A DNA stretch of 64,000 nucleotides from Candidatus Woesearchaeota archaeon (GCA_013202845.1 JABMPT010000008.1:5415-69414); one strand, 5' to 3'. Positions 9,683-19,050 are shown, counted from the stretch's first letter. Notes: generated from the letters alone by a model not told the origin. Numbers and translations are program-made.

Positions 9683-9749
9683 TTTCTGAAACGAAAAATA
9701 GAAATATTTATATGCATTTGTGTATATTTGTAGTTACGGGGGATATAAA

Positions 9750-9896
9750 ATGGAATCGAAGAATATCACTTTAAGAGTCAATTCAAAATTGTATGATGGT
9801 TATAAGCAATTTTGCAAGAAGAAGGGATTATTGATATCGAGACAAGTTGAAATTATGATGGAAAAACAGTTTAAAGAGAGACAAAAAAATGACTGA
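9750..9896 (+). CDS. ribbon-helix-helix (CopG/Arc-like) small DNA-binding protein
   Basis: 48 aa, MESKNITLRVNSKLYDGYKQFCKKKG...; has the RHH beta-strand/helix pattern. Not in the ORF track (<60 aa). Its stop overlaps the ATPase start (8-nt overlap). GGGGGAT Shine-Dalgarno-like sequence upstream. Confidence 0.4.
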   Translation: MESKNITLRVNSKLYDGYKQFCKKKGLLISRQVEIMMEKQFKERQKND

Positions 9897-11580
9897 TGGA
9901 AGAATTATTGATGAAGGAAGATTGTCTTTTACTGTAGAATCAAGCGTAATTGGTCATTTGAGTATTGGATTGTATAGAAACTTCTCTAGAGCTATCAAAG
10001 AATTAGTCTCAAATGCCTATGATGCACTTGCAATTGAAGTAAAAATCAACTTAGATATAAAATCAAAAAGACTGATTATTAAAGATGATGGTAAAGGAAT
10101 GAATAAAGATGACATACAGAGGCAATTGCTTACAATAGGAAAAACTACACCAAGAACTCAGATGAGTATAGGTTTAGGCAGAAAAAGAATTGGTCAATTT
10201 GGAGTGGGATTCTTGGCAGTATTCCCTTACTGTAATAAAATCAGGTTAATTAGCAAGAAAAGAGGAGAAGAAAATGCTGTGGAGATAACAATTGATGTTA
10301 GTAAATACTATAAGAATAGCACATTTACTCTGGATAAAGACTTAGAGGATATTGAGTATAAGGTGGTTTCAAGTTTACTGCCTAAAGAGAAAGGAGAAAC
10401 GATTATACTTCTTGAAAGCATAAAGCCACACATTTTAAAAATATTCAATAAGAGCAAAGGAAAATCTCACAGTTCTATAGAACAGTTTAGTGAATTTGAA
10501 AAAACAAAATGGGAATTGCAACAATACTTACCGTTACAATTTTCAGAATCTTGCCCAGAATTAAGGGATTTTTTTAGTGTAGAAAGTAGGACCCCTTTAA
10601 GAGTATGGTTTGATGGAGAAGAATTATTTAGGAATGTTCCAGAGGGTTCAAATAACAAGAAATCTGAGATGATAGAGAAAGGTGAAGAATCTTTTGGGGA
10701 TATCAAAATAAAATATGTCATTCTTTCTCCAATTAAATCGATTCGACCACAGGAATCAAGAGGACTTCAAATTAGGATGAATGATGTGGGTATTGGTTTG
10801 CCAACAGATTTTGATGTTATTAAACTCAGAGGAAGACTCCTTGGTAAACTCAATTATCTAGCAGGAGAAGTTCATATTATAAAAGGATTAGATAATGACC
10901 TTATGTTAGATAGGGATGGATTTTATTTTACTGAAGAAGTTTCAGCTATGTATGAATTCTTTAGGGATAAACTCACAAAATGGGACCATAAATTTCAAAA
11001 CACTGCAAAGGAAGATAAAGCAGTATATGAAATTCTGTCAAGATTACCTAAGCAGGATAAAATAGTGCAGGAGTTTAAATCGGTAGGAATTTTAAAATTT
11101 GATAAAAACAACCTTCGCATACCTAAAGCGCCAATAACAAGGAAACATAAAACTAAATTGTCTTCAATCTCAAAACAAATTGATACTATAGTTAGCAAGA
11201 AAGGTTATAGCGTCAAGAGAAGGAAAAAGAGTGATACATGTGACCAATCTATCAAAGTTGACAAAAAGACAAAGAAGGTTATCATTTATGAAGACCATCC
11301 TGCACTCTCTGAACAGATTGAAATAGACGGTAAGAAAATATCAATAACATATGACGAACAGGATGAATTAAAAAAGGATGAATCAATATGTGAGTTAGAT
11401 TCAAAAAACAAAGTAGCTACTTTTAATAAAGACCATGAAATTTTTGATCTTAGCTTAGACAACAAGATAATTATGGAATTTGTTATCAGACTCCATCTTC
11501 TAGCAAAGACTGAAATGATTTCAAATTCTGCTTTAAAGAAAATTTTGAAGGCCTTCAAAAAGACTTTCTCCAAAGAATAA
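9889..11580 (+). CDS. GHKL (Bergerat-fold) ATPase, MORC/MutL/Hsp90-like (HATPase_c_3-type)
   Basis: N-box ELVSNAYDA, G1 DDGKGM and G2 GQFGVGFLAVF motifs in the N-terminal 110 aa. The 450-aa C-terminal region is unassigned. Confidence 0.8.
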   Translation: MTDGRIIDEGRLSFTVESSVIGHLSIGLYRNFSRAIKELVSNAYDALAIEVKINLDIKSKRLIIKDDGKGMNKDDIQRQLLTIGKTTPRTQMSIGLGRKRIGQFGVGFLAVFPYCNKIRLISKKRGEENAVEITIDVSKYYKNSTFTLDKDLEDIEYKVVSSLLPKEKGETIILLESIKPHILKIFNKSKGKSHSSIEQFSEFEKTKWELQQYLPLQFSESCPELRDFFSVESRTPLRVWFDGEELFRNVPEGSNNKKSEMIEKGEESFGDIKIKYVILSPIKSIRPQESRGLQIRMNDVGIGLPTDFDVIKLRGRLLGKLNYLAGEVHIIKGLDNDLMLDRDGFYFTEEVSAMYEFFRDKLTKWDHKFQNTAKEDKAVYEILSRLPKQDKIVQEFKSVGILKFDKNNLRIPKAPITRKHKTKLSSISKQIDTIVSKKGYSVKRRKKSDTCDQSIKVDKKTKKVIIYEDHPALSEQIEIDGKKISITYDEQDELKKDESICELDSKNKVATFNKDHEIFDLSLDNKIIMEFVIRLHLLAKTEMISNSALKKILKAFKKTFSKE

Positions 11581-11582
11581 AA

Positions 11583-12308
11583 ATGGAAGAGGCTTTGATT
11601 AGTTTAAAAACGGAAATTGTAAATAGTTTTTGGAAAAACAAATTTATTAAAATAGGTCAACTTGTTTTTCCTAGGAAAAAATATAAATCCCTAAAAGTAC
11701 TAAGTCTTACTAATTCTCGAAACATTGAAGAAGTAAAAATACTTATTAAGGATCATTTGACATCAAGGGCCTATCTGTTTGCATGGTGCAATGATTTCAT
11801 TGAAGCTTTAAGCTTAGATGCAGAGGCTAAGTTTAATGAAGTTCTTGATGCTGCCAAATTTGAGGAAACTTTTCTAAGCCGTACTGATCATAAGGTTTAT
11901 GCTTGTTTTCCATTTCATGTGCTTAATATAGATTTTACATCACAAGCAGTTGAATCAGAAGATGGTCGTTTGGAAAAGGAATTACACTCAATTGAAAAGG
12001 TTTTATTGAAACAAAAAGAGACAAATGGAAATAATGCTTGGTTGATGTTGTTTACTACCTTAATTGATAATACACCGGTCAATGTAGATGATATTAAAAT
12101 AAATTCTGACCAATATACAATAAGTTTATGGTCGGGAATGACTTTCTCTAAGCAAGGAAGTTTGAATGATTCTGATGATATCAAGAACATTCTCATGGAA
12201 TTTTTTCACAAAATGAAAGATAAATATGGGCTTCAGGTTGATATTGATTCATTTACAAAACCAATTAACTCTCATGAAGTAATGTCTATTTCGATTATAG
12301 TAAAATAA
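11583..12308 (+). CDS. hypothetical protein (operon partner of the GHKL ATPase)
   Basis: Start 2 nt after the ATPase stop. No recognisable motif. Confidence 0.45.
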   Translation: MEEALISLKTEIVNSFWKNKFIKIGQLVFPRKKYKSLKVLSLTNSRNIEEVKILIKDHLTSRAYLFAWCNDFIEALSLDAEAKFNEVLDAAKFEETFLSRTDHKVYACFPFHVLNIDFTSQAVESEDGRLEKELHSIEKVLLKQKETNGNNAWLMLFTTLIDNTPVNVDDIKINSDQYTISLWSGMTFSKQGSLNDSDDIKNILMEFFHKMKDKYGLQVDIDSFTKPINSHEVMSISIIVK

Positions 12309-12323
12309 CTTTAAGGTGATATT

Positions 12324-13103
12324 ATGGCAAGAATAAATGTTAGTACCTTTCCTCGGATGTTAAAAAGCGTTCACAATGCTCAAAAGAAATGGAGACAGCA
12401 GAACTATGAAAACTCTATTACCAAGTTTAAAGATGAAATCGAGAAAACTCTTGAAATATTGAATTTTTATGGAAAATGGAAGAGTAAGTTTTCTGGTCAA
12501 AAGATAACAGATAAAATGATACCTGAAATATTCATGGATGGATTATCAAGTCTCCATTTTGCTTTATGGGGACAATATAAATATGCGAATATGGGTTTAC
12601 GTTCACAATTAGAGACTGCTTTGAGACTTATTTATTTTATGGACCACCCACGAGAATATGAATGGTGGTTAAGTGGTAATGAATGGTATAAGGGACAAAA
12701 AGGAGCTTATGTTTGGGGTGATGATTTTAATTACTTTAAACAGATAGATAAGATAAACAAGTTTGATAAAAATTTAGCTGGTGAAAAAAAGATATATTCC
12801 TCATCTAGTTCGGGCAAGTCTGGAAATTTACTAAAGGAAATTTACGGAAAACTCTCCAAGTCTATACATACTAGTGCACAACATTTTCAAACCTCTATAG
12901 GTAGATTTTCTCCTAAGTATTCCATGTCTAAAATGGAGACTTGGTTAAAGTCCTGTAAGGATTTACAATGTTACATAATTGTATCTTTGATATTATCTTT
13001 TCCTAAAGAATTTAAGAAAATGTCATCTATAGAACGGAGTACAATATTAACAAAAGGAGTTGTTGATTCGGTATATATCAAAAAAATAAATGAAGTAATC
13101 TAA
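12324..13103 (+). CDS. hypothetical protein (operon partner; weak R-x6-H HEPN-like motif RLIYFMDH)
   Basis: AGGTGA Shine-Dalgarno-like sequence upstream; co-directional tight spacing. Confidence 0.4.
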   Translation: MARINVSTFPRMLKSVHNAQKKWRQQNYENSITKFKDEIEKTLEILNFYGKWKSKFSGQKITDKMIPEIFMDGLSSLHFALWGQYKYANMGLRSQLETALRLIYFMDHPREYEWWLSGNEWYKGQKGAYVWGDDFNYFKQIDKINKFDKNLAGEKKIYSSSSSGKSGNLLKEIYGKLSKSIHTSAQHFQTSIGRFSPKYSMSKMETWLKSCKDLQCYIIVSLILSFPKEFKKMSSIERSTILTKGVVDSVYIKKINEVI

Positions 13104-13104
13104 A

Positions 13105-14172
13105 ATGACTAAACAAGAGAAAATTATCTCACCATCCACAAGATATCAAGGTAGTAAGAGAAGAATACTGCCTTGGCTGAAATCAACATTTGATAATCTA
13201 GAATTTGAAACTGTTTTAGATGGCTTTGGAGGTACTGCAAGCGTTAGTTATTTGTTCAAGCTAATGGGAAAAGAAGTAACCTTCAACGATATTCTTTTAT
13301 CAAATTATCAAACAGGACTTGCTTTAATTGAAAACAAAAAAACATTATTAAATGAAGAAGATATTGAATTCATTCTTAACATAAATAGAAAAAGTAATTA
13401 TTCAAACTTAATTTCGAAGAATTATAAAAATATATATTTTCTTGATGAAGAAAATAAGTGGTTAGACAAAGTAATTAACAATATTAAAGATTTATCTTTA
13501 TTTTACAAAGGAAATAAGTTGAAATTAAAAAAGGCTTTAGCTCATCATATTCTTTTTCAATCTTGTCTCTCAAAAAGGCCTTTTAATTTATTTCATAGAA
13601 AGAATCTAAACATGAGAACTAACACTAATATTAAAAGAAGTTTTGGTAATAAAGTTACTTGGGATACTCCTTTCAGAGAACATTTTATTAAATTTAATAA
13701 AGAGTACTCAGATAGAGTATTCGATAACAAAAGAAGAAACAAAGCTATGAATAAAGACATCTTCAAGATAAATAAGACTTATGATTTAGTTTATCTTGAT
13801 CCTCCTTATATGCGAACTCATACAACCAAACCTCAGAAATACCAAGAAATGTATCACTTTTTAGAAGGAATTATGAACTATGAAACTTGGCTAAAGAATA
13901 TTGATTATATTCGAATACACAAACCGTTCATCATAGAAAATAATAACTGGAACGAAAAAGTGTTAGAGAATTTTGATGAACTATTTAAGAAATTTTCTGA
14001 CTCTGTATTGGTTGTTTCTTATGGAAATAAAGGTTCGCCAAGTATATCTTCTATTGTGCGTTTGATGAAAAAATACAAAAACAAAGTTAGAACAATTTCA
14101 AGACCTTATTCATACAGATTAAATAGAAATAATGGAAAAGGATATCGAGAAGTGATTATTATTGGAGAATAA
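13105..14172 (+). CDS. D12-class (Dam-like) N6-adenine DNA methyltransferase
   Basis: N-terminal Y-QGSKRR..P, motif I DGFGGTASV, motif IV YLDPPYM. Start 1 nt after the upstream stop. Confidence 0.65.
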   Translation: MTKQEKIISPSTRYQGSKRRILPWLKSTFDNLEFETVLDGFGGTASVSYLFKLMGKEVTFNDILLSNYQTGLALIENKKTLLNEEDIEFILNINRKSNYSNLISKNYKNIYFLDEENKWLDKVINNIKDLSLFYKGNKLKLKKALAHHILFQSCLSKRPFNLFHRKNLNMRTNTNIKRSFGNKVTWDTPFREHFIKFNKEYSDRVFDNKRRNKAMNKDIFKINKTYDLVYLDPPYMRTHTTKPQKYQEMYHFLEGIMNYETWLKNIDYIRIHKPFIIENNNWNEKVLENFDELFKKFSDSVLVVSYGNKGSPSISSIVRLMKKYKNKVRTISRPYSYRLNRNNGKGYREVIIIGE

Positions 14173-14173
14173 G

Positions 14174-14842
14174 CTAAGAATTATAGTTGTTTAAGTAGTC
14201 CATAGTTCTAATATAGGACTTATCAATTAGTCTATTAAATTTTGTTCTTAGTCTTTTAGTTTCTGTTGTTAAATACCCTTCATGTGTAGGTGAAGGGTAC
14301 TTCTTTAGTTTTATCTTAGTTTGTTTATCTTTCCTTCCAGCATTATGAACGTATTGGTTTCTAATAATATAAATATGTTCCATTATTTTCTTTTCATCTT
14401 GTGTTAAAAAAGGAATTCCAAACAATTCGAAGAAATCGTAAACATCAAATCTGTTTTTAATATTTAACTTATTTAAGATAATTTCATAAGTATTGCGTTT
14501 TCTTGAAGATACTAATTCGCCAATAATATTCTTATGTTTCGTTTCTTTGCTTGTGAAAAAAGTTGAAAATTTATTAAGAAGTTCTTGTATTAAATCTTTA
14601 TAATAGACCTCAAAATTTGTACTTAAAGATATGAGTGCATGTTCTGAACATGATACTTCGATTTTGATTAATTCTTTATCTTGTGATTTTTTTACTGCCT
14701 CGTGATGTTTTGGATGTATATCATAAGCTTTTTGTTGATATATCCAATTATATGTTTTAAGTTTACTCATCGCAGTTATTAACATCTCAGTTCTTTTTGC
14801 ATTAGTATGAAAATTTGATATTGAATTAATTTTTCTTATCAT
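14174..14842 (-). CDS. HEPN-like protein (RN-x3-H), convergent on the MTase
   Basis: IIRNQYVHNAG matches RNxxxH. Its stop abuts the MTase stop. Confidence 0.4.
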   Translation of the reverse strand: MIRKINSISNFHTNAKRTEMLITAMSKLKTYNWIYQQKAYDIHPKHHEAVKKSQDKELIKIEVSCSEHALISLSTNFEVYYKDLIQELLNKFSTFFTSKETKHKNIIGELVSSRKRNTYEIILNKLNIKNRFDVYDFFELFGIPFLTQDEKKIMEHIYIIRNQYVHNAGRKDKQTKIKLKKYPSPTHEGYLTTETKRLRTKFNRLIDKSYIRTMDYLNNYNS

Positions 14843-16281: not shown

Positions 16282-17112
16282 ATGAATGTTAAAATTCCCA
16301 GATTTGTCAAATGGGCAGGCGGAAAAACTCAATTAATCAACCAATTCAAACCTTTCTTCCCTAAACAAATAGAAAGATACTTTGAACCATTTGTAGGTGG
16401 AGGAGCTGTTTTGTTTTACATAATTCAGAAATTTTCTCCAAAAAAAGTATTTATTTCAGATACTAATGAAGAGCTTATTAATGCTTATGAAATAATAAAA
16501 AATGATGTTGAATCTTTAATTAAAGAACTTAAGAAGCATAAAAACAATTATGACAAAAATCCTAAAGAGTATTACTATAAAACAAGAGCTATAAATCCTG
16601 AAGATTTAACCGAAGTAGAAAAAGCAGCCAGATTCATATTTCTTAACAGAACATGCTTCAATGGATTATATAGAGTGAATTCTAAGAATAGATTCAATGT
16701 ACCTATTGGAAGATACACAAATCCTGCAATAGTAAGAGAAGATATTCTTAGAGAAATTAATAAATTGCTTCAAAAAGTCGAAATAGAAGTTATGTCTTTT
16801 GAGAAAATAGTTAAGATTGTCAAGAAAGGAGACTTTGTTTATTTCGATCCTCCTTATTGGCCAATAAAAAGCGATAATTTCACAAGTTACACAAAACTAG
16901 ATTTCAAGAAAGAAGATCAAGAAAAACTTGCAGAAGTTTTTCAAGAATTAGATAAAAAAGGAGTTAAAGTAATGTTAAGTAATAGCGATACAGAATTAAT
17001 TCAAAATTTATATTCTAAATACAAACCAAAGATTGTCAAAGCAACTAGAATGATTAATTCTAAAGCAGAAGGAAGAGGAGCAATTAATGAAGTTGTTGTT
17101 GTGAACTATTAG
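16282..17112 (+). CDS. Dam/DpnM-like (alpha-class) GATC-type N6-adenine DNA methyltransferase
   Basis: KWAGGK, FVGGGAV, NGLYRVN, FDPPYWP. Confidence 0.85.
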   Translation: MNVKIPRFVKWAGGKTQLINQFKPFFPKQIERYFEPFVGGGAVLFYIIQKFSPKKVFISDTNEELINAYEIIKNDVESLIKELKKHKNNYDKNPKEYYYKTRAINPEDLTEVEKAARFIFLNRTCFNGLYRVNSKNRFNVPIGRYTNPAIVREDILREINKLLQKVEIEVMSFEKIVKIVKKGDFVYFDPPYWPIKSDNFTSYTKLDFKKEDQEKLAEVFQELDKKGVKVMLSNSDTELIQNLYSKYKPKIVKATRMINSKAEGRGAINEVVVVNY

Positions 17113-17635
17113 CTCGTTTGGATATGTTCTTTACAAGTTTTACACCCTCAACTTCTTGCATTAATATCTTAATAGGAACCAATCGACCTACTGTGGTGTG
17201 TTTATAATTACCTTCAAGGTCTTTTGTAGTTGTTTTACTTTCTTTGAATCTATCAATGTTTTTCAAGAACCATTCTCTAACTTTATTTAATGGGAGAATG
17301 TACATATCATCCCATTCAGTGAAATAATAGAAAATAATTCTGGCTTTACTTTTAACAAAACATCCTTTTGTTCCCAAACTCTCATTGCTTAATGTTTCAA
17401 ACCAAAAATTCCCAGTAGTATACTTGTCCGTTTTTACTTCGATAGACACAAAGAATTTTAATTCGCCTTTTTTATAACTCCAAATTAAATCAATATCGTT
17501 TTTTTGATATTCAGGATCATTCTCAACATTCTTCAATTCAATTGTTTTTTTAAGATCACCTAAATATCTACAAACAACTTCTATTCCTTTCTTCGAGAAA
17601 TCATTTTTTTCATCAAAGGTATAAGACTTAACCAT
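17084..17635 (-). CDS. PD-(D/E)XK nuclease-fold protein, putative restriction endonuclease subunit
   Basis: D-x(12)-E-V-K core (NDIDLIW...FFVSIEVK). True ATG at 17635; the track's first M is TTG. The ATG lies inside AATGGTTAA, which overlaps the upstream ORF's stop. Confidence 0.45.
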   Translation of the reverse strand: MVKSYTFDEKNDFSKKGIEVVCRYLGDLKKTIELKNVENDPEYQKNDIDLIWSYKKGELKFFVSIEVKTDKYTTGNFWFETLSNESLGTKGCFVKSKARIIFYYFTEWDDMYILPLNKVREWFLKNIDRFKESKTTTKDLEGNYKHTTVGRLVPIKILMQEVEGVKLVKNISKRANSSQQQLH

Positions 17636-18152
17636 TTTGTGTGGCTTTACCAACAATAACAAAAATATCCTCTTCGTTTAGAATGGAGTCCATTAAATTC
17701 TTAAAAACAAAAGCTCTTGCTAAACCAGTTTTTTCCATTCTCATCATCAGCTCTATTAAATGACCAATAAACTCAATAGTATACTCCCCATACTTATTTA
17801 GCTCATCAAATTCTCTTAATTTCTTAGGTGTTGTCTGTTTTAACTGACACTTCTGCTGTTCTTCCTTTGTTCTAAAGGGTTCTACCTTTTCCCACATATC
17901 TCTTAAGTATCTAACAAAATCAAGACTTAATTCTCTGTTGTGCTCCTTTTTAATAAGAATGTCAATAACCCAATGAATGTGCTTTGGAGTTCTAACCCTC
18001 TTATTTGGTTCTTGATATTTAATTATAATATCTAAATCAGGATTTTCTCCTCTACTACCCTGAAATACACCCATAATAGTACCATCCAATAGATTGAATT
18101 CTTTAAAGGAGTGAGCTTTTGTTCCTTTTCCATCTCTCAAACTGTATTCCAT
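17628..18152 (-). CDS. hypothetical protein translationally coupled to the nuclease (possible specificity/partner subunit)
   Basis: 174 aa; its stop overlaps the nuclease ATG by 8 nt; sits between two DNA MTase genes. Confidence 0.35.
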   Translation of the reverse strand: MEYSLRDGKGTKAHSFKEFNLLDGTIMGVFQGSRGENPDLDIIIKYQEPNKRVRTPKHIHWVIDILIKKEHNRELSLDFVRYLRDMWEKVEPFRTKEEQQKCQLKQTTPKKLREFDELNKYGEYTIEFIGHLIELMMRMEKTGLARAFVFKNLMDSILNEEDIFVIVGKATQNG

Positions 18153-18279
18153 AACATAAATTATACTGAAGATGTTTTTATAAATCTTTTCGATTCTTCC
18201 GAAAACATCCTGTCAATAACAACGAAAACACTGGACATCGAGGAGAAAACTATATAAAAGAAAAAGTTCCAAGCATAGT

Positions 18280-19050
18280 ATGACTATTTTTGAAGATAAC
18301 AATATAACATTACTGAAAGGGGATTGTTTGAAACTCTTACCAACCATAAGAAAAGGCTCAGTAACAACTATATTTGCAGATCCTCCTTACAATCTTTCTA
18401 ATGGAGGAATTACGTGTAAAGCCGGAAAAATGGTTTCTGTGAACAAAGGAGACTGGGATAAATCCAAAGGATTTACTAAAGATTATGAATTTACATATAA
18501 CTGGTTGAAATTATGTAAAGATGTCTTAAAACCTAATGGAACTATATGGATATCAGGAACTCCTCATAATATTTATCAAGTAGGACATGCTTTACAATCT
18601 CTTGGTTTTAATATTCTAAATGAAATTTCTTGGTTTAAACCAAATGCTCCACCAAATCTTTCTTGTCGTTATTTTGCACATTCACACGAGACAATTTTAT
18701 GGGCTAAAAAAGATAAAAAAGCAAAACACACATTTAATTATAAAGAAATGAAAAAATGGGATGATAAAATTAGTCCTTCAAATAAACAAATGAGAAGTGT
18801 TTGGCACATTCCTTTAACAAGCCCGAAAGAAAAGAAGAATGGTAAGCATCCAACACAAAAACCAATTGAGTTATTAAAAAGAATAATCACTGCAAGTTCT
18901 AATAAAAAAGATTTAATTTTGGATCCTTTTAATGGTTCAGGCACTACTGGAATTGTAGCAAAAATGTTAGGAAGAAGATATATAGGAATTGATAAAGAAC
19001 AAAAGTTTCTAAATTTAACAAAAAAAAGATTTAATGAATTAAAGAAATAA
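18280..19050 (+). CDS. beta-class N4/N6 DNA methyltransferase (DpnA/ParB-MTase-like, PF01555-type)
   Basis: ADPPYN early, FNGSGTTG near the C-terminus (circularly permuted beta-class order). Confidence 0.8.
   Translation: MTIFEDNNITLLKGDCLKLLPTIRKGSVTTIFADPPYNLSNGGITCKAGKMVSVNKGDWDKSKGFTKDYEFTYNWLKLCKDVLKPNGTIWISGTPHNIYQVGHALQSLGFNILNEISWFKPNAPPNLSCRYFAHSHETILWAKKDKKAKHTFNYKEMKKWDDKISPSNKQMRSVWHIPLTSPKEKKNGKHPTQKPIELLKRIITASSNKKDLILDPFNGSGTTGIVAKMLGRRYIGIDKEQKFLNLTKKRFNELKK

What the first reader, a model, noticed from the sequence alone, without database searches (positions are those of the whole stretch)
9750..14842. Candidate new R-M/defense module: RHH - MORC/MutL-type GHKL ATPase - two unknowns - Dam-like D12 methyltransferase, capped by a convergent HEPN-like gene
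Five co-directional genes are tightly packed (8-nt overlap, 2-nt, 15-nt and 1-nt spacers), which suggests one translationally coupled operon. The large protein has unambiguous Bergerat-fold motifs (ExxxNAYDA, DDGKGM, GQFGVGFLAVF) but a 450-aa C-terminal region of unknown fold. The last gene is a D12 N6-adenine MTase (DGFGG, DPPY). GHKL/MORC-like ATPases linked to methylases have been described as components of prokaryotic restriction-modification-like systems (paraMORC family). However, the two middle proteins (241 and 259 aa; one with a weak R-x6-H motif) and the RHH regulator do not match any arrangement I recognise. A convergent HEPN-like (IIRNQYVHNAG) gene abuts the MTase stop. I read this as an ATP-dependent restriction or abortive-infection effector complex, with the MTase providing self-protection and the RHH providing autoregulation.
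Basis: partly seen in the sequence, partly recalled or inferred. Interest (0 to 1): 0.85.

Follow-up and report, generated by a model that had tools for sequence, protein, structure and literature searches.

The report
Methylase-linked GHKL ATPase defence cassette
A tightly packed gene cluster in a Woesearchaeota genome is one copy of a widespread, horizontally mobile four-gene cassette (GHKL ATPase, methyltransferase-like protein without cofactor motifs, HEPN-like helical protein, adenine DNA methylase) that looks like an undescribed restriction-modification-type immune system with no recognisable DNA-cutting enzyme.

Summary
The conserved unit is four genes, not six. A is a GHKL ATPase (563 aa), B a 241-aa protein, C a 259-aa protein and D a D12 N6-adenine methyltransferase. 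A-B-C are contiguous in all 23 genome loci seeded on A, each with an adjacent DNA methylase. In 55 metagenome loci seeded on C, the neighbours were present wherever the contig reached: B 46/46, A 40/40, D 41/41. Hosts span DPANN, Bathy-, Thor- and Nitrososphaerota archaea and at least six bacterial phyla.

The RHH gene occurs only in the closest relatives. The convergent HEPN-like gene is never conserved with the cassette.

It is best read as a new variant of GHKL-associated restriction-modification-like defence. The mechanism is inferred only.

The parts
9750..9896 (+). Small RHH-like protein (48 aa from the ATG at 9750). Probable lineage-specific transcriptional regulator, not a core part of the cassette.
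   Evidence: Weak profile matches to RHH families: RepB-RCR_reg 0.016 and RelB/DinJ 0.063. A homolog is found only in the Aenigmarchaeota loci L001/L002/L018 (E=2e-17). Other loci have an HTH-type small gene (HTH_17 by Pfam in L004; others judged by eye) or none. GGGGG lies 8 nt upstream of the ATG. An AT-rich palindrome at 9698-9713 overlaps a TATA-like box.
9889..11580 (+). Protein A: GHKL (Bergerat-fold) ATPase, 563 aa, with a conserved middle region and C-terminal region of unassigned fold.
   Evidence: HATPase_c_3 6.9e-21. Residues 13-181 match the BbrUII/HgiDII restriction-enzyme model at 94 bits, against a cutoff of 550. hhalign gives 99% to the NmeAI-type GHKL domain. Full-length homologs of about 560 aa were found: 362 hits. 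Invariant residues include E38, N42, D45, D66, G68, G70 and G102-G107. Across both GHKL groups the C-terminal domain keeps only K462, C501, N513 and F519.
11583..12308 (+). Protein B: 241-aa class-I methyltransferase-fold protein without canonical SAM-binding motifs. Proposed pseudo-methyltransferase acting as sensor or adaptor.
12324..13103 (+). Protein C: 259-aa all-helical, HEPN-like protein and distant DUF5677 relative. Candidate effector.
13105..14172 (+). Protein D: D12-class (alpha-type) N6-adenine DNA methyltransferase, 355 aa. Proposed to mark self DNA.
   Evidence: MethyltransfD12 2.4e-14, 54 bits against a cutoff of 22. It matches PADLOC Type II MTase models PDLC03261 (3.3e-45) and PDLC03385 (1.1e-32). 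The DGFGG and DPPY motifs are present. It is adjacent to A-B-C in 21 of 23 genome loci and 41 of 41 metagenome loci.

Best explanation
This is a mobile four-gene immune cassette that tells self from non-self DNA by methylation, in the manner of a restriction-modification system. D methylates adenines in a sequence motif on host DNA. This role is inferred from its family. A, B and C form the restricting or effector side.

- A is a dimerising GHKL ATPase. Its domain type is otherwise found at the N-terminus of putative restriction enzymes. It probably supplies ATP-driven clamping or conformational switching on DNA.
- B has a methyltransferase fold. It has lost the SAM-binding loop but keeps a strongly conserved pocket at the catalytic-loop position (N-x-D-F-x-S-Q). 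It probably acts as a non-catalytic reader of the target site or its methylation state, or as an adaptor to C.
- C is a HEPN-like helical protein with an invariant R/E/H/E/H constellation and is the most likely nuclease. By analogy with HEPN enzymes it would cut RNA. The outcome would then be growth arrest or abortive infection, rather than clean DNA restriction.

What is shown: the gene linkage, the folds of B and C, the GHKL and D12 family assignments, and the co-evolution of A, B and C. What is inferred: complex formation, what B binds, what C cuts, and the defence phenotype.
For: Linkage:
- A-B-C are contiguous in all 23 A-seeded loci, each with an adjacent DNA methylase. The D12 methylase is co-directional in 17, convergent in 3 and divergent upstream in 1. 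It is replaced by a PF01555 methylase in 2.
- In the independent C-seeded sample the counts are B 46/46, A 40/40 and D 41/41.
- Methylase inversion and replacement next to a constant A-B-C block is typical of R-M modularity.

Distribution and context:
- Hosts include DPANN, Bathy-, Thor-, Hel- and Nitrososphaerota archaea. Bacterial hosts include Planctomycetota, Omnitrophica, Pseudomonadota, Desulfobacteraceae, Dehalococcoidia and Gemmatimonadota.
- Flanks differ between loci. By eye, from their sequences (no family scan), they appear to include an integrase, Type I/III-like restriction helicases and a Mod-like methylase; toxin-antitoxin pairs (PIN/MazE, HepT/NTP_transf_2) are shown by Pfam.
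- In the window the cassette lies in a 9-kb stretch holding three DNA methylases.

Co-evolution:
- Mantel r is 0.84 for A-B, 0.84 for A-C and 0.90 for B-C. The partial correlation of B-C given A is 0.64 (p=0.0005). Every pairing with D gives only 0.59.

Folds and family relations:
- B has a methyltransferase fold.
- A's GHKL domain is closest to an NmeAI-type GHKL-Ymh(HEPN) putative restriction enzyme.
- GHKL-HEPN fusions in R-M neighbourhoods are on record (PMC3710099; PMC2441816).
Against: - No experiment of any kind bears on this.
- No DNase fold was detected in A, B or C by Pfam, NCBIfam, PADLOC or PDB profile searches.
- R101 of the R-x6-H motif is replaced by Q or N in L019 and L020 and in one ParA-linked subgroup. 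It is followed by Leu rather than a polar residue.
- B could still bind SAM in a non-canonical way.
- The cassette was not found on viral contigs or plasmids. That is neutral evidence, but it gives no direct link to phage conflict.
Confidence: 0.5

Rival explanations
1. It is a conventional DNA-cleaving restriction-modification system whose endonuclease site is simply unrecognised. Candidate sites are the conserved acidic cluster of B (D117, E131, E133, E138, K214), a His/Glu metal site in C (E68, D72, E97, H108, E111, H182), or the unmodelled middle and C-terminal part of A. A would act like the GHKL domain of HgiDII-type enzymes.
Against: No PD-(D/E)xK, HNH, GIY-YIG, PLD or Toprim signal appears in any search. 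A's C-terminal domain keeps no conserved His, Asp or Glu across the two GHKL groups. The methyltransferase fold of B has no known nuclease members (my own knowledge).
Confidence: 0.25
2. It is a nuclease-free exclusion system. The GHKL protein clamps and compacts or blocks unmethylated DNA, as MORC or BREX do, and B and C act as loader and regulator.
For: No nuclease was detected (same calls as above). The sister cassette (methylase, GHKL, ABC ATPase of AriA/AbiLi type) also lacks any nuclease domain. Eukaryotic MORC GHKL ATPases entrap and compact DNA (abstract of PMC8277788).
Against: C has a strongly conserved polar constellation that looks catalytic. A is not specifically MORC-like. There is no evidence that A binds DNA.
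Confidence: 0.1
3. It is not a defence system. It could be an epigenetic, repair or chaperone module, for example methyl-directed repair with a MutL/Hsp90-like ATPase, or merely a selfish addiction module.
For: GHKL ATPases include MutL and Hsp90. In PDB sequence searches, Hsp90 family members are the best hits. Dam-type methylases serve repair and regulation in some bacteria (my own knowledge).
Against: The cassette has a patchy cross-domain distribution, variable flanks and defence-island neighbours. The methylase is swapped or inverted while A-B-C stay fixed. The closest GHKL relatives are R-M-associated. No MutS/MutH-like partner is present.
Confidence: 0.1

Closest known systems
paraMORC-type GHKL ATPases of restriction-modification systems (Iyer, Abhiman & Aravind 2008, PMC2292703)
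   Same: An N-terminal GHKL ATPase with intact motifs is encoded in a conserved operon with a DNA methylase. The operon is laterally mobile across bacteria and archaea.
   Different: The described paraMORC operons centre on SFII helicases and recognisable nucleases (REase fold, HNH, Vsr, TIR), mostly with cytosine methylases. This cassette has no helicase and no recognisable nuclease, and it uses an adenine D12 methylase. Its partners are a methyltransferase-fold protein and a HEPN-like protein that the parts of the paper I read do not mention. The S5 domain that defines the group was not tested here.
R.NmeAIP-type putative restriction enzymes: GHKL fused to a Ymh-family HEPN domain, next to an m5C methylase and Vsr (PMC2441816; PMC3710099; locus L168)
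   Same: This is the closest GHKL domain found (hhalign 99%, E 6e-18, 122 columns including the N-terminal strap). It combines GHKL, a HEPN-type module and a methylase in the same way.
   Different: There the HEPN is fused to the ATPase and carries a canonical RNxxxH motif. Here C is a separate protein with no detectable sequence similarity to Ymh and a non-canonical motif. The extra protein B is present. The methylase is m6A rather than m5C, and there is no Vsr.
BbrUII/HgiDII family restriction enzymes (NCBIfam NF050001)
   Same: The N-terminal roughly 170 residues of A match this model (6.4e-27).
   Different: The score is 94 bits against a cutoff of 550. The remaining roughly 390 residues do not match, so A is not a member.
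PrrC / RloC anticodon nucleases linked to Type I R-M (as discussed in PMC3710099)
   Same: The concept is shared: an NTPase-coupled HEPN effector is genetically tied to a methylation-based system.
   Different: Those use ABC ATPases fused to HEPN and accompany a complete Type I R-M system with its own DNase. Here no separate restriction enzyme is present.
Sacsin (eukaryotic Hsp90-like repeats plus a C-terminal HEPN domain)
   Different: Sacsin is a giant eukaryotic chaperone in a single polypeptide, with no methylase. The similarity is limited to domain types.
Sister cassette found here: D12 methylase, GHKL (about 521 aa), AriA/AbiLi-like ABC ATPase (loci L025-L035)
   Same: The methylase belongs to the same lineage (E about 1e-90). 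The GHKL shares its whole length with A at about 30% identity.
   Different: The gene order is M-A-ABC. B and C are replaced by a single ABC ATPase (AAA_15/AAA_21; PADLOC AriA 5e-23). I also found no description of this cassette.

Membership tests
GHKL (Bergerat-fold) ATPase superfamily | Motif I (ExxxNxxD), motif II (DxGxG) and motif III (GxxGxG), with a profile match above threshold. | tested here: met
   HATPase_c_3 scores 75 bits against a cutoff of 25. E38, N42, D45, D66, G68, G70 and G102/G105/G107 are invariant in 28 homologs.
paraMORC / MORC (Iyer 2008) | An S5-fold domain directly after the GHKL domain. | not tested
The middle region is conserved (W208, N249, R296, G303, E327, R342), but its fold is unknown.
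paraMORC / MORC (Iyer 2008) | A conserved operon with R-M components, namely a DNA methylase. | tested here: met
   A methylase is adjacent in 23 of 23 A-seeded loci and 41 of 41 C-seeded loci.
paraMORC / MORC (Iyer 2008) | Association with an SFII helicase and/or a recognisable nuclease. | tested here: not met
   The cassette is A-B-C-D only. Neither B nor C is a helicase or a known nuclease fold.
BbrUII/HgiDII family restriction enzyme (NF050001) | A whole-protein score of at least 550 bits. | tested here: not met
   The score is 94.4 bits and covers residues 13-181 only.
D12-class N6-adenine DNA methyltransferase (protein D) | PF02086 above threshold, plus an AdoMet motif (FGG) and the catalytic DPPY motif. 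| tested here: met
   The score is 54.1 bits against a cutoff of 22. DGFGG and DPPY are present in the sequence. Enzymatic activity and target motif were not tested.
Class-I SAM-dependent methyltransferase (protein B) | A seven-stranded Rossmann-like methyltransferase fold. | tested here: met
Class-I SAM-dependent methyltransferase (protein B) | A Gly-rich SAM-binding loop after strand 1 and an acidic residue at the end of strand 2. | tested here: not met
   The loop consensus is L-T-L-T-x-x-x-N with no glycine. The end of strand 2 carries invariant W68 and no conserved acid (mapped on the secondary structure). This mapping is by secondary structure, not by superposition.
HEPN superfamily (protein C) | A four-helix up-down bundle similar to solved HEPN domains. 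| tested here: inconclusive
HEPN superfamily (protein C) | A conserved Rx4-6H motif at the end of helix 3, with a polar residue after the R. | tested here: inconclusive
   R101-x6-H108 lies at the end of helix 85-107 in the window protein and in most homologs. However, R101 is Q or N in L019 and L020 and Q in one ParA-linked subgroup. It is followed by Leu in the cassette family. R93 and H108 are the invariant pair.
DUF5677 (PF18928) (protein C) | A score of at least 27.1 bits. | tested here: not met
   The window protein scores 15.2 bits. The best family member scores 23.6 bits. 13 of 28 members give weak hits.
Type II restriction-modification system | A cognate endonuclease of a known nuclease fold next to the methylase. 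| tested here: not met
   No nuclease family is hit by A, B or C in Pfam, NCBIfam, PADLOC or PDB profile searches.
Defence systems and candidates catalogued in PADLOC-DB v2.0.0 | Profile hits to all components of one system. | tested here: not met
   A hits only the N-terminus of REase_II models. D hits MTase_II models. B has no hit. C has one marginal hit (AriAB 8e-4). Homologs of B and C from L003 and L013 have none. DefenseFinder could not be run.

The most novel reading that the evidence does not exclude
It is a restriction-modification-like immune system that contains no DNase. A catalytically dead methyltransferase-fold protein (B) reads the mark written by the D12 methylase. A restriction-type GHKL ATPase converts that reading into activation of a HEPN-like RNase (C), or into MORC-like silencing of the foreign DNA. 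Methylation-based self/non-self recognition would then be coupled to an RNA-level or abortive output. The cassette would have been exchanged between archaea and bacteria as a unit.
Probability: 0.25. Interest if true: 0.8.

Novelty: new variant of a known kind. Interest (0 to 1): 0.62.

Why it matters
GHKL ATPases have been predicted since 2008 to work in restriction systems. Little in the papers read here shows what they do there; one tested case is the Shedu-type VcSduA (PMC12137116). R.HgiDII still has no assigned nuclease domain (PMC2441816).

This cassette is compact: four small genes. It is strictly conserved and is present in many uncultured archaea and bacteria, so it could serve as a tractable model. 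If B is a methylation reader built on a dead methyltransferase fold, it would link the writer and the sensor of an epigenetic mark in a new way. If C is the effector, it would define a new catalytic variant of the HEPN/DUF5677 group. That variant is also used in a separate cassette with a ParA-type ATPase. The cassette would also add a defence system to DPANN and other archaea, where few systems beyond CRISPR and R-M are known (PMC12988326).

Tried and rejected
- **Nuclease domain in A.** Pfam scans of 28 homologs hit only HATPase_c_3, HATPase_c and SACS. PDB profile searches matched only residues 20-150. The candidate His residues H470 and H516 are not conserved in the sister group. The idea was rejected as unsupported. 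It is not excluded, because A was not modelled.
- **B as a degenerate paralog of D.** hhalign gives probability 0.4%. Rejected.
- **B as a PD-(D/E)xK nuclease, suggested by the D...ExE pattern.** The predicted fold is a methyltransferase fold. Rejected.
- **C related to HepT, to Ymh, or to the neighbouring HEPN-like gene.** hhalign found nothing.
- **PP_RS20740 family (NCBIfam hit of B, 6e-7, 29 bits against a cutoff of 200).** The only paper that mentions it concerns furfural tolerance. This gave no functional lead.
- **Carriage on viruses or plasmids.** None was found.
- **Structure submission and libraries.** It succeeded with hits from the exhaustive search. The afdb50 fold library was unavailable.
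- **Literature searches.** Searches for GHKL, HEPN, methylase and DUF5677 found no description of this cassette. Absence from an open-access library is not proof of novelty.
- **Specificity coupling of B and D.** The partial Mantel correlation is only 0.21 (p=0.02). This is too weak to argue that B shares D's target.

Full report
**1. What is in the sequence**

An RHH-like ORF ends at 9896 and overlaps the start of a 563-aa ORF (A, 9889..11580) by 8 nt. Next come a 241-aa ORF (B, 11583..12308; 2-nt spacer), a 259-aa ORF (C, 12324..13103; 15-nt spacer) and a 355-aa ORF (D, 13105..14172; 1-nt spacer). A convergent 222-aa ORF (14174..14842, minus strand) ends 1 nt after D. All quoted motifs are present.

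Profile searches gave these assignments:
- A matches HATPase_c_3 (6.9e-21), over residues 32-142 only.
- D matches MethyltransfD12 (2.4e-14). It also matches PADLOC Type II methylase models, including the C-terminal half of a 643-aa double methylase.
- The RHH assignment and the HEPN assignment of the convergent gene both rest on sub-threshold matches.
- B has no Pfam or PADLOC family. C has only a marginal DUF5677 match.

The window comes from a Candidatus Woesearchaeota contig of 339 kb, shown by an exact match to P0001.

**2. The conserved unit**

A belongs to a large family of full-length proteins of about 560 aa: 362 hits, 39-79% identical among those listed. Three context look-ups showed the same A-B-C-D block with unrelated flanks. 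The hosts were an Aenigmarchaeote, a Bathyarchaeote and the anammox planctomycete Candidatus Wujingus (taxonomy).

A scan of one genome per species gave 80 loci. I searched their ORFs with the six window proteins. Counting the five context loci as well, this made 85 comparison loci.
- All 23 loci whose GHKL is at least 40% identical carry B and C directly downstream. Stop-to-stop spans show tight packing throughout.
- The D12 methylase follows on the same strand in 17 loci. It is convergent in 3 (L003, L011, L019) and divergent upstream in 1 (L043).
- In the two Nitrososphaerota loci (L020, L033) a PF01555 N6_N4 methylase takes its place.

A second, independent sample was seeded on C in metagenomes. 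It gave 55 loci. Every neighbour that the contig could reach was present: B 46/46, A 40/40 and D 41/41, with D convergent in 2.

The RHH gene was found only in the three Aenigmarchaeota loci. Elsewhere there is what looks by eye like an XRE-type small gene, an HTH_17-type one (Pfam weak hit in L004), or none. The convergent HEPN-like gene was found in none of the loci. The unit is therefore A-B-C plus a DNA methylase. It is horizontally mobile between archaea and at least six bacterial phyla.

**3. Protein A**

The Bergerat motifs are invariant. Among solved structures, only residues 20-150 find relatives, and Hsp90/HtpG are the best of these. By hhalign, the match to E. coli HtpG covers 101 columns (97%) and the match to MutL covers 46 columns.

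A much better match is the GHKL domain of a gonococcal NmeAI-type gene (99%, E 6e-18, 122 columns). That gene lies between an m5C methylase and a Ymh-type HEPN ORF followed by what I read, from their sequences alone, as an m5C methylase and a Vsr gene. A's ATPase therefore belongs to the restriction-associated GHKL radiation. It is not a member of the BbrUII/HgiDII family (94 bits against a cutoff of 550).

The roughly 400 residues after the ATPase are conserved across the family and match nothing. The C-terminal domain keeps only K462, C501, N513 and F519 when the 30%-identical sister group is included. That set does not look like a nuclease site.

**4. Protein B**

The usual SAM signatures are nevertheless absent:
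- The loop after strand 1 reads L-T-L-T-x-x-x-N.
- The end of strand 2 carries invariant W68 rather than an acid.

The strongest conservation sits where amino-methyltransferases have their (D/N)PP(Y/F) loop. Here it reads N115-x-D117-F118-x-S120-Q121, followed by R129, E131, E133 and E138. I read B as a pseudo-methyltransferase that still has a functional pocket. This mapping is based on secondary structure, not on a superposition. B shows no sequence relation to D.

**5. Protein C**

The C-seeded scan also recovered 25 loci with a distant C-like protein in a different conserved cassette. That cassette reads ParA/Soj-type ATPase, then a protein of about 160 aa, then the C-like protein. The HEPN survey lists a HEPN family (MAE_18760) in operons with ParA/Soj. 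I could not test whether it is the same family.

Across both groups the invariant residues are R93, E97, F105, H108, E111, S178 and H182. R101 of the R-x6-H motif is not invariant. C is therefore HEPN-like in fold, and its motif sits in the expected position. Its active site, if there is one, is non-canonical.

**6. Co-evolution**

Pairwise distance matrices over 18 cassettes gave these results.

| Pair | Mantel r |
|---|---|
| A-B | 0.84 |
| A-C | 0.84 |
| B-C | 0.90 |
| any pairing with D | 0.59 |
| B-C given A (partial) | 0.64 (p=0.0005) |

B is the most divergent protein (32% mean identity) and D the most conserved (52%). This fits a scheme in which A, B and C form a functional complex and the methylase is a more loosely attached module.

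**7. Sister system**

GHKL proteins about 30% identical to A (L025-L035) sit in a cassette of three genes. The genes are a methylase of the same D12 lineage, the GHKL protein, and an ABC ATPase of the AriA/AbiLi/GajA type. B and C thus appear to be exchangeable for an ABC ATPase. This cassette also has no recognisable nuclease.

**8. Interpretation**

These features argue for a methylation-based self/non-self system:
- strict methylase linkage;
- methylase inversion and replacement;
- cross-domain mobility;
- a defence-island setting. The window has three DNA methylases within 9 kb. Other loci are flanked by toxin-antitoxin pairs (Pfam). By eye, without a family scan, some also show an integrase and Type I/III-like genes;
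- a GHKL domain of restriction type.

Precedents exist. GHKL ATPases in R-M operons were described as paraMORCs (PMC2292703). GHKL-Ymh(HEPN) fusions are listed as putative restriction enzymes (PMC2441816). They were interpreted as PrrC/RloC analogues (PMC3710099).

What differs here is threefold. The architecture is split. A methyltransferase-fold protein without SAM motifs is present. No DNase is recognisable. I therefore favour a model in which D marks self DNA, A-B-C senses unmarked DNA, and C is the effector, possibly acting on RNA. All mechanistic steps are inferred. The rival readings are a cryptic DNase, nuclease-free exclusion, and a non-defence function. They are listed with the results that would separate them.

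**9. Novelty**

B and C have no family in the local Pfam copy, in NCBIfam or in PADLOC-DB v2. NCBI names them 'hypothetical protein' and names A 'ATP-binding protein'. Two B homologs carry a precomputed PF28273 label that is not in the Pfam copy I could search, so a recent DUF entry may exist. Seven literature searches found no description of the cassette. I rate it a new variant of a known kind (GHKL-associated R-M-like systems). I do not rate it categorically new.

Noticed in passing
loci L025-L035 (e.g. L025:5857-9744): A sister three-gene cassette occurs in Planctomycetota, Bacteroidetes, Acidobacteria and Verrucomicrobia. It holds a D12 methylase of the same lineage as D, a 521-aa GHKL about 30% identical to A over its full length, and an ABC ATPase of about 390 aa (AAA_15/AAA_21; PADLOC AriA 5e-23). 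No nuclease domain was detected.
   Followed up: partly
loci L143-L167 (e.g. L145:304-2313): Distant C-like proteins of about 240 aa occur in another conserved three-gene cassette. It reads ParA/Soj-type ATPase (NMKGGVGKTT, DxDPQ), then a helical protein of about 160 aa, then the C-like protein. They share invariant R93, E97, H108, E111, S178 and H182 with C. It may correspond to the ParA-linked MAE_18760 HEPN family of PMC3710099, but this was not tested.
   Followed up: partly
window 16282-19050: A second probable R-M unit lies here. It holds a Dam-family methylase (16282..17112, TIGR00571 3.4e-91) and two overlapping convergent ORFs with no family (17084..17662 and 17628..18152, minus strand). 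It also holds an N6_N4 methylase (18280..19050, PF01555 1.2e-64). The two-methylase layout recalls DpnII-type systems (my own knowledge). The two unknown ORFs could be the endonuclease.
   Followed up: partly
window 14174-14842 (-): A stand-alone 222-aa protein carries a canonical RNxxxH HEPN motif (IIRNQYVHNAG). It gives weak matches to the RiboL-PSP and Apea HEPN models (0.0014 and 0.0034). It abuts D but is absent from every related locus, so it is probably an independent toxin or defence gene in the same island.
   Followed up: partly
L020:5302-6606 and 10435-11439 (also L033): In the Nitrososphaerota versions the D12 methylase is replaced by a PF01555 N6_N4 methylase downstream. A 434-aa Methyltransf_24 protein lies just upstream of the cassette.
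   Followed up: no
proteins P0124, P0126 (homologs of window 11583-12308): The precomputed annotation lists Pfam PF28273.1 for two B homologs. This accession is not in the Pfam copy available here, and scanning those proteins returned nothing. A recent Pfam entry may already cover family B.
   Followed up: partly
L168:3116-6081 (Neisseria gonorrhoeae chromosome record): This locus reads, in order and judged from the translations only: an m5C-type methylase, a GHKL gene, a Ymh-type HEPN ORF (RNPVQH) and a Vsr-like gene. The methylase and the GHKL gene are each split into separate ORFs in this strain, apparently by frameshifts. It looks like a decayed NmeAI-type system.
   Followed up: no
window 9696-9735: An AT-rich palindrome (ATAGAAATAT/ATATTTATAT) overlaps a TATA-like box about 40 nt upstream of the RHH start codon. 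An imperfect 12-nt inverted repeat flanks it. This may be an operator for the RHH protein.
   Followed up: no
window 12354-12536 (residues 11-71 of C): The N-terminal long helix of C gives a marginal PADLOC hit to the C-terminal part of an AriAB fusion model (PDLC02981, 8e-4). It was not seen in two C homologs and is unexplained.
   Followed up: no
protein P0232: A 798-aa protein matches the B profile four times, over profile positions 76-128 (E 3.6e-4). It is the only B hit that is not about 240 aa.
   Followed up: no
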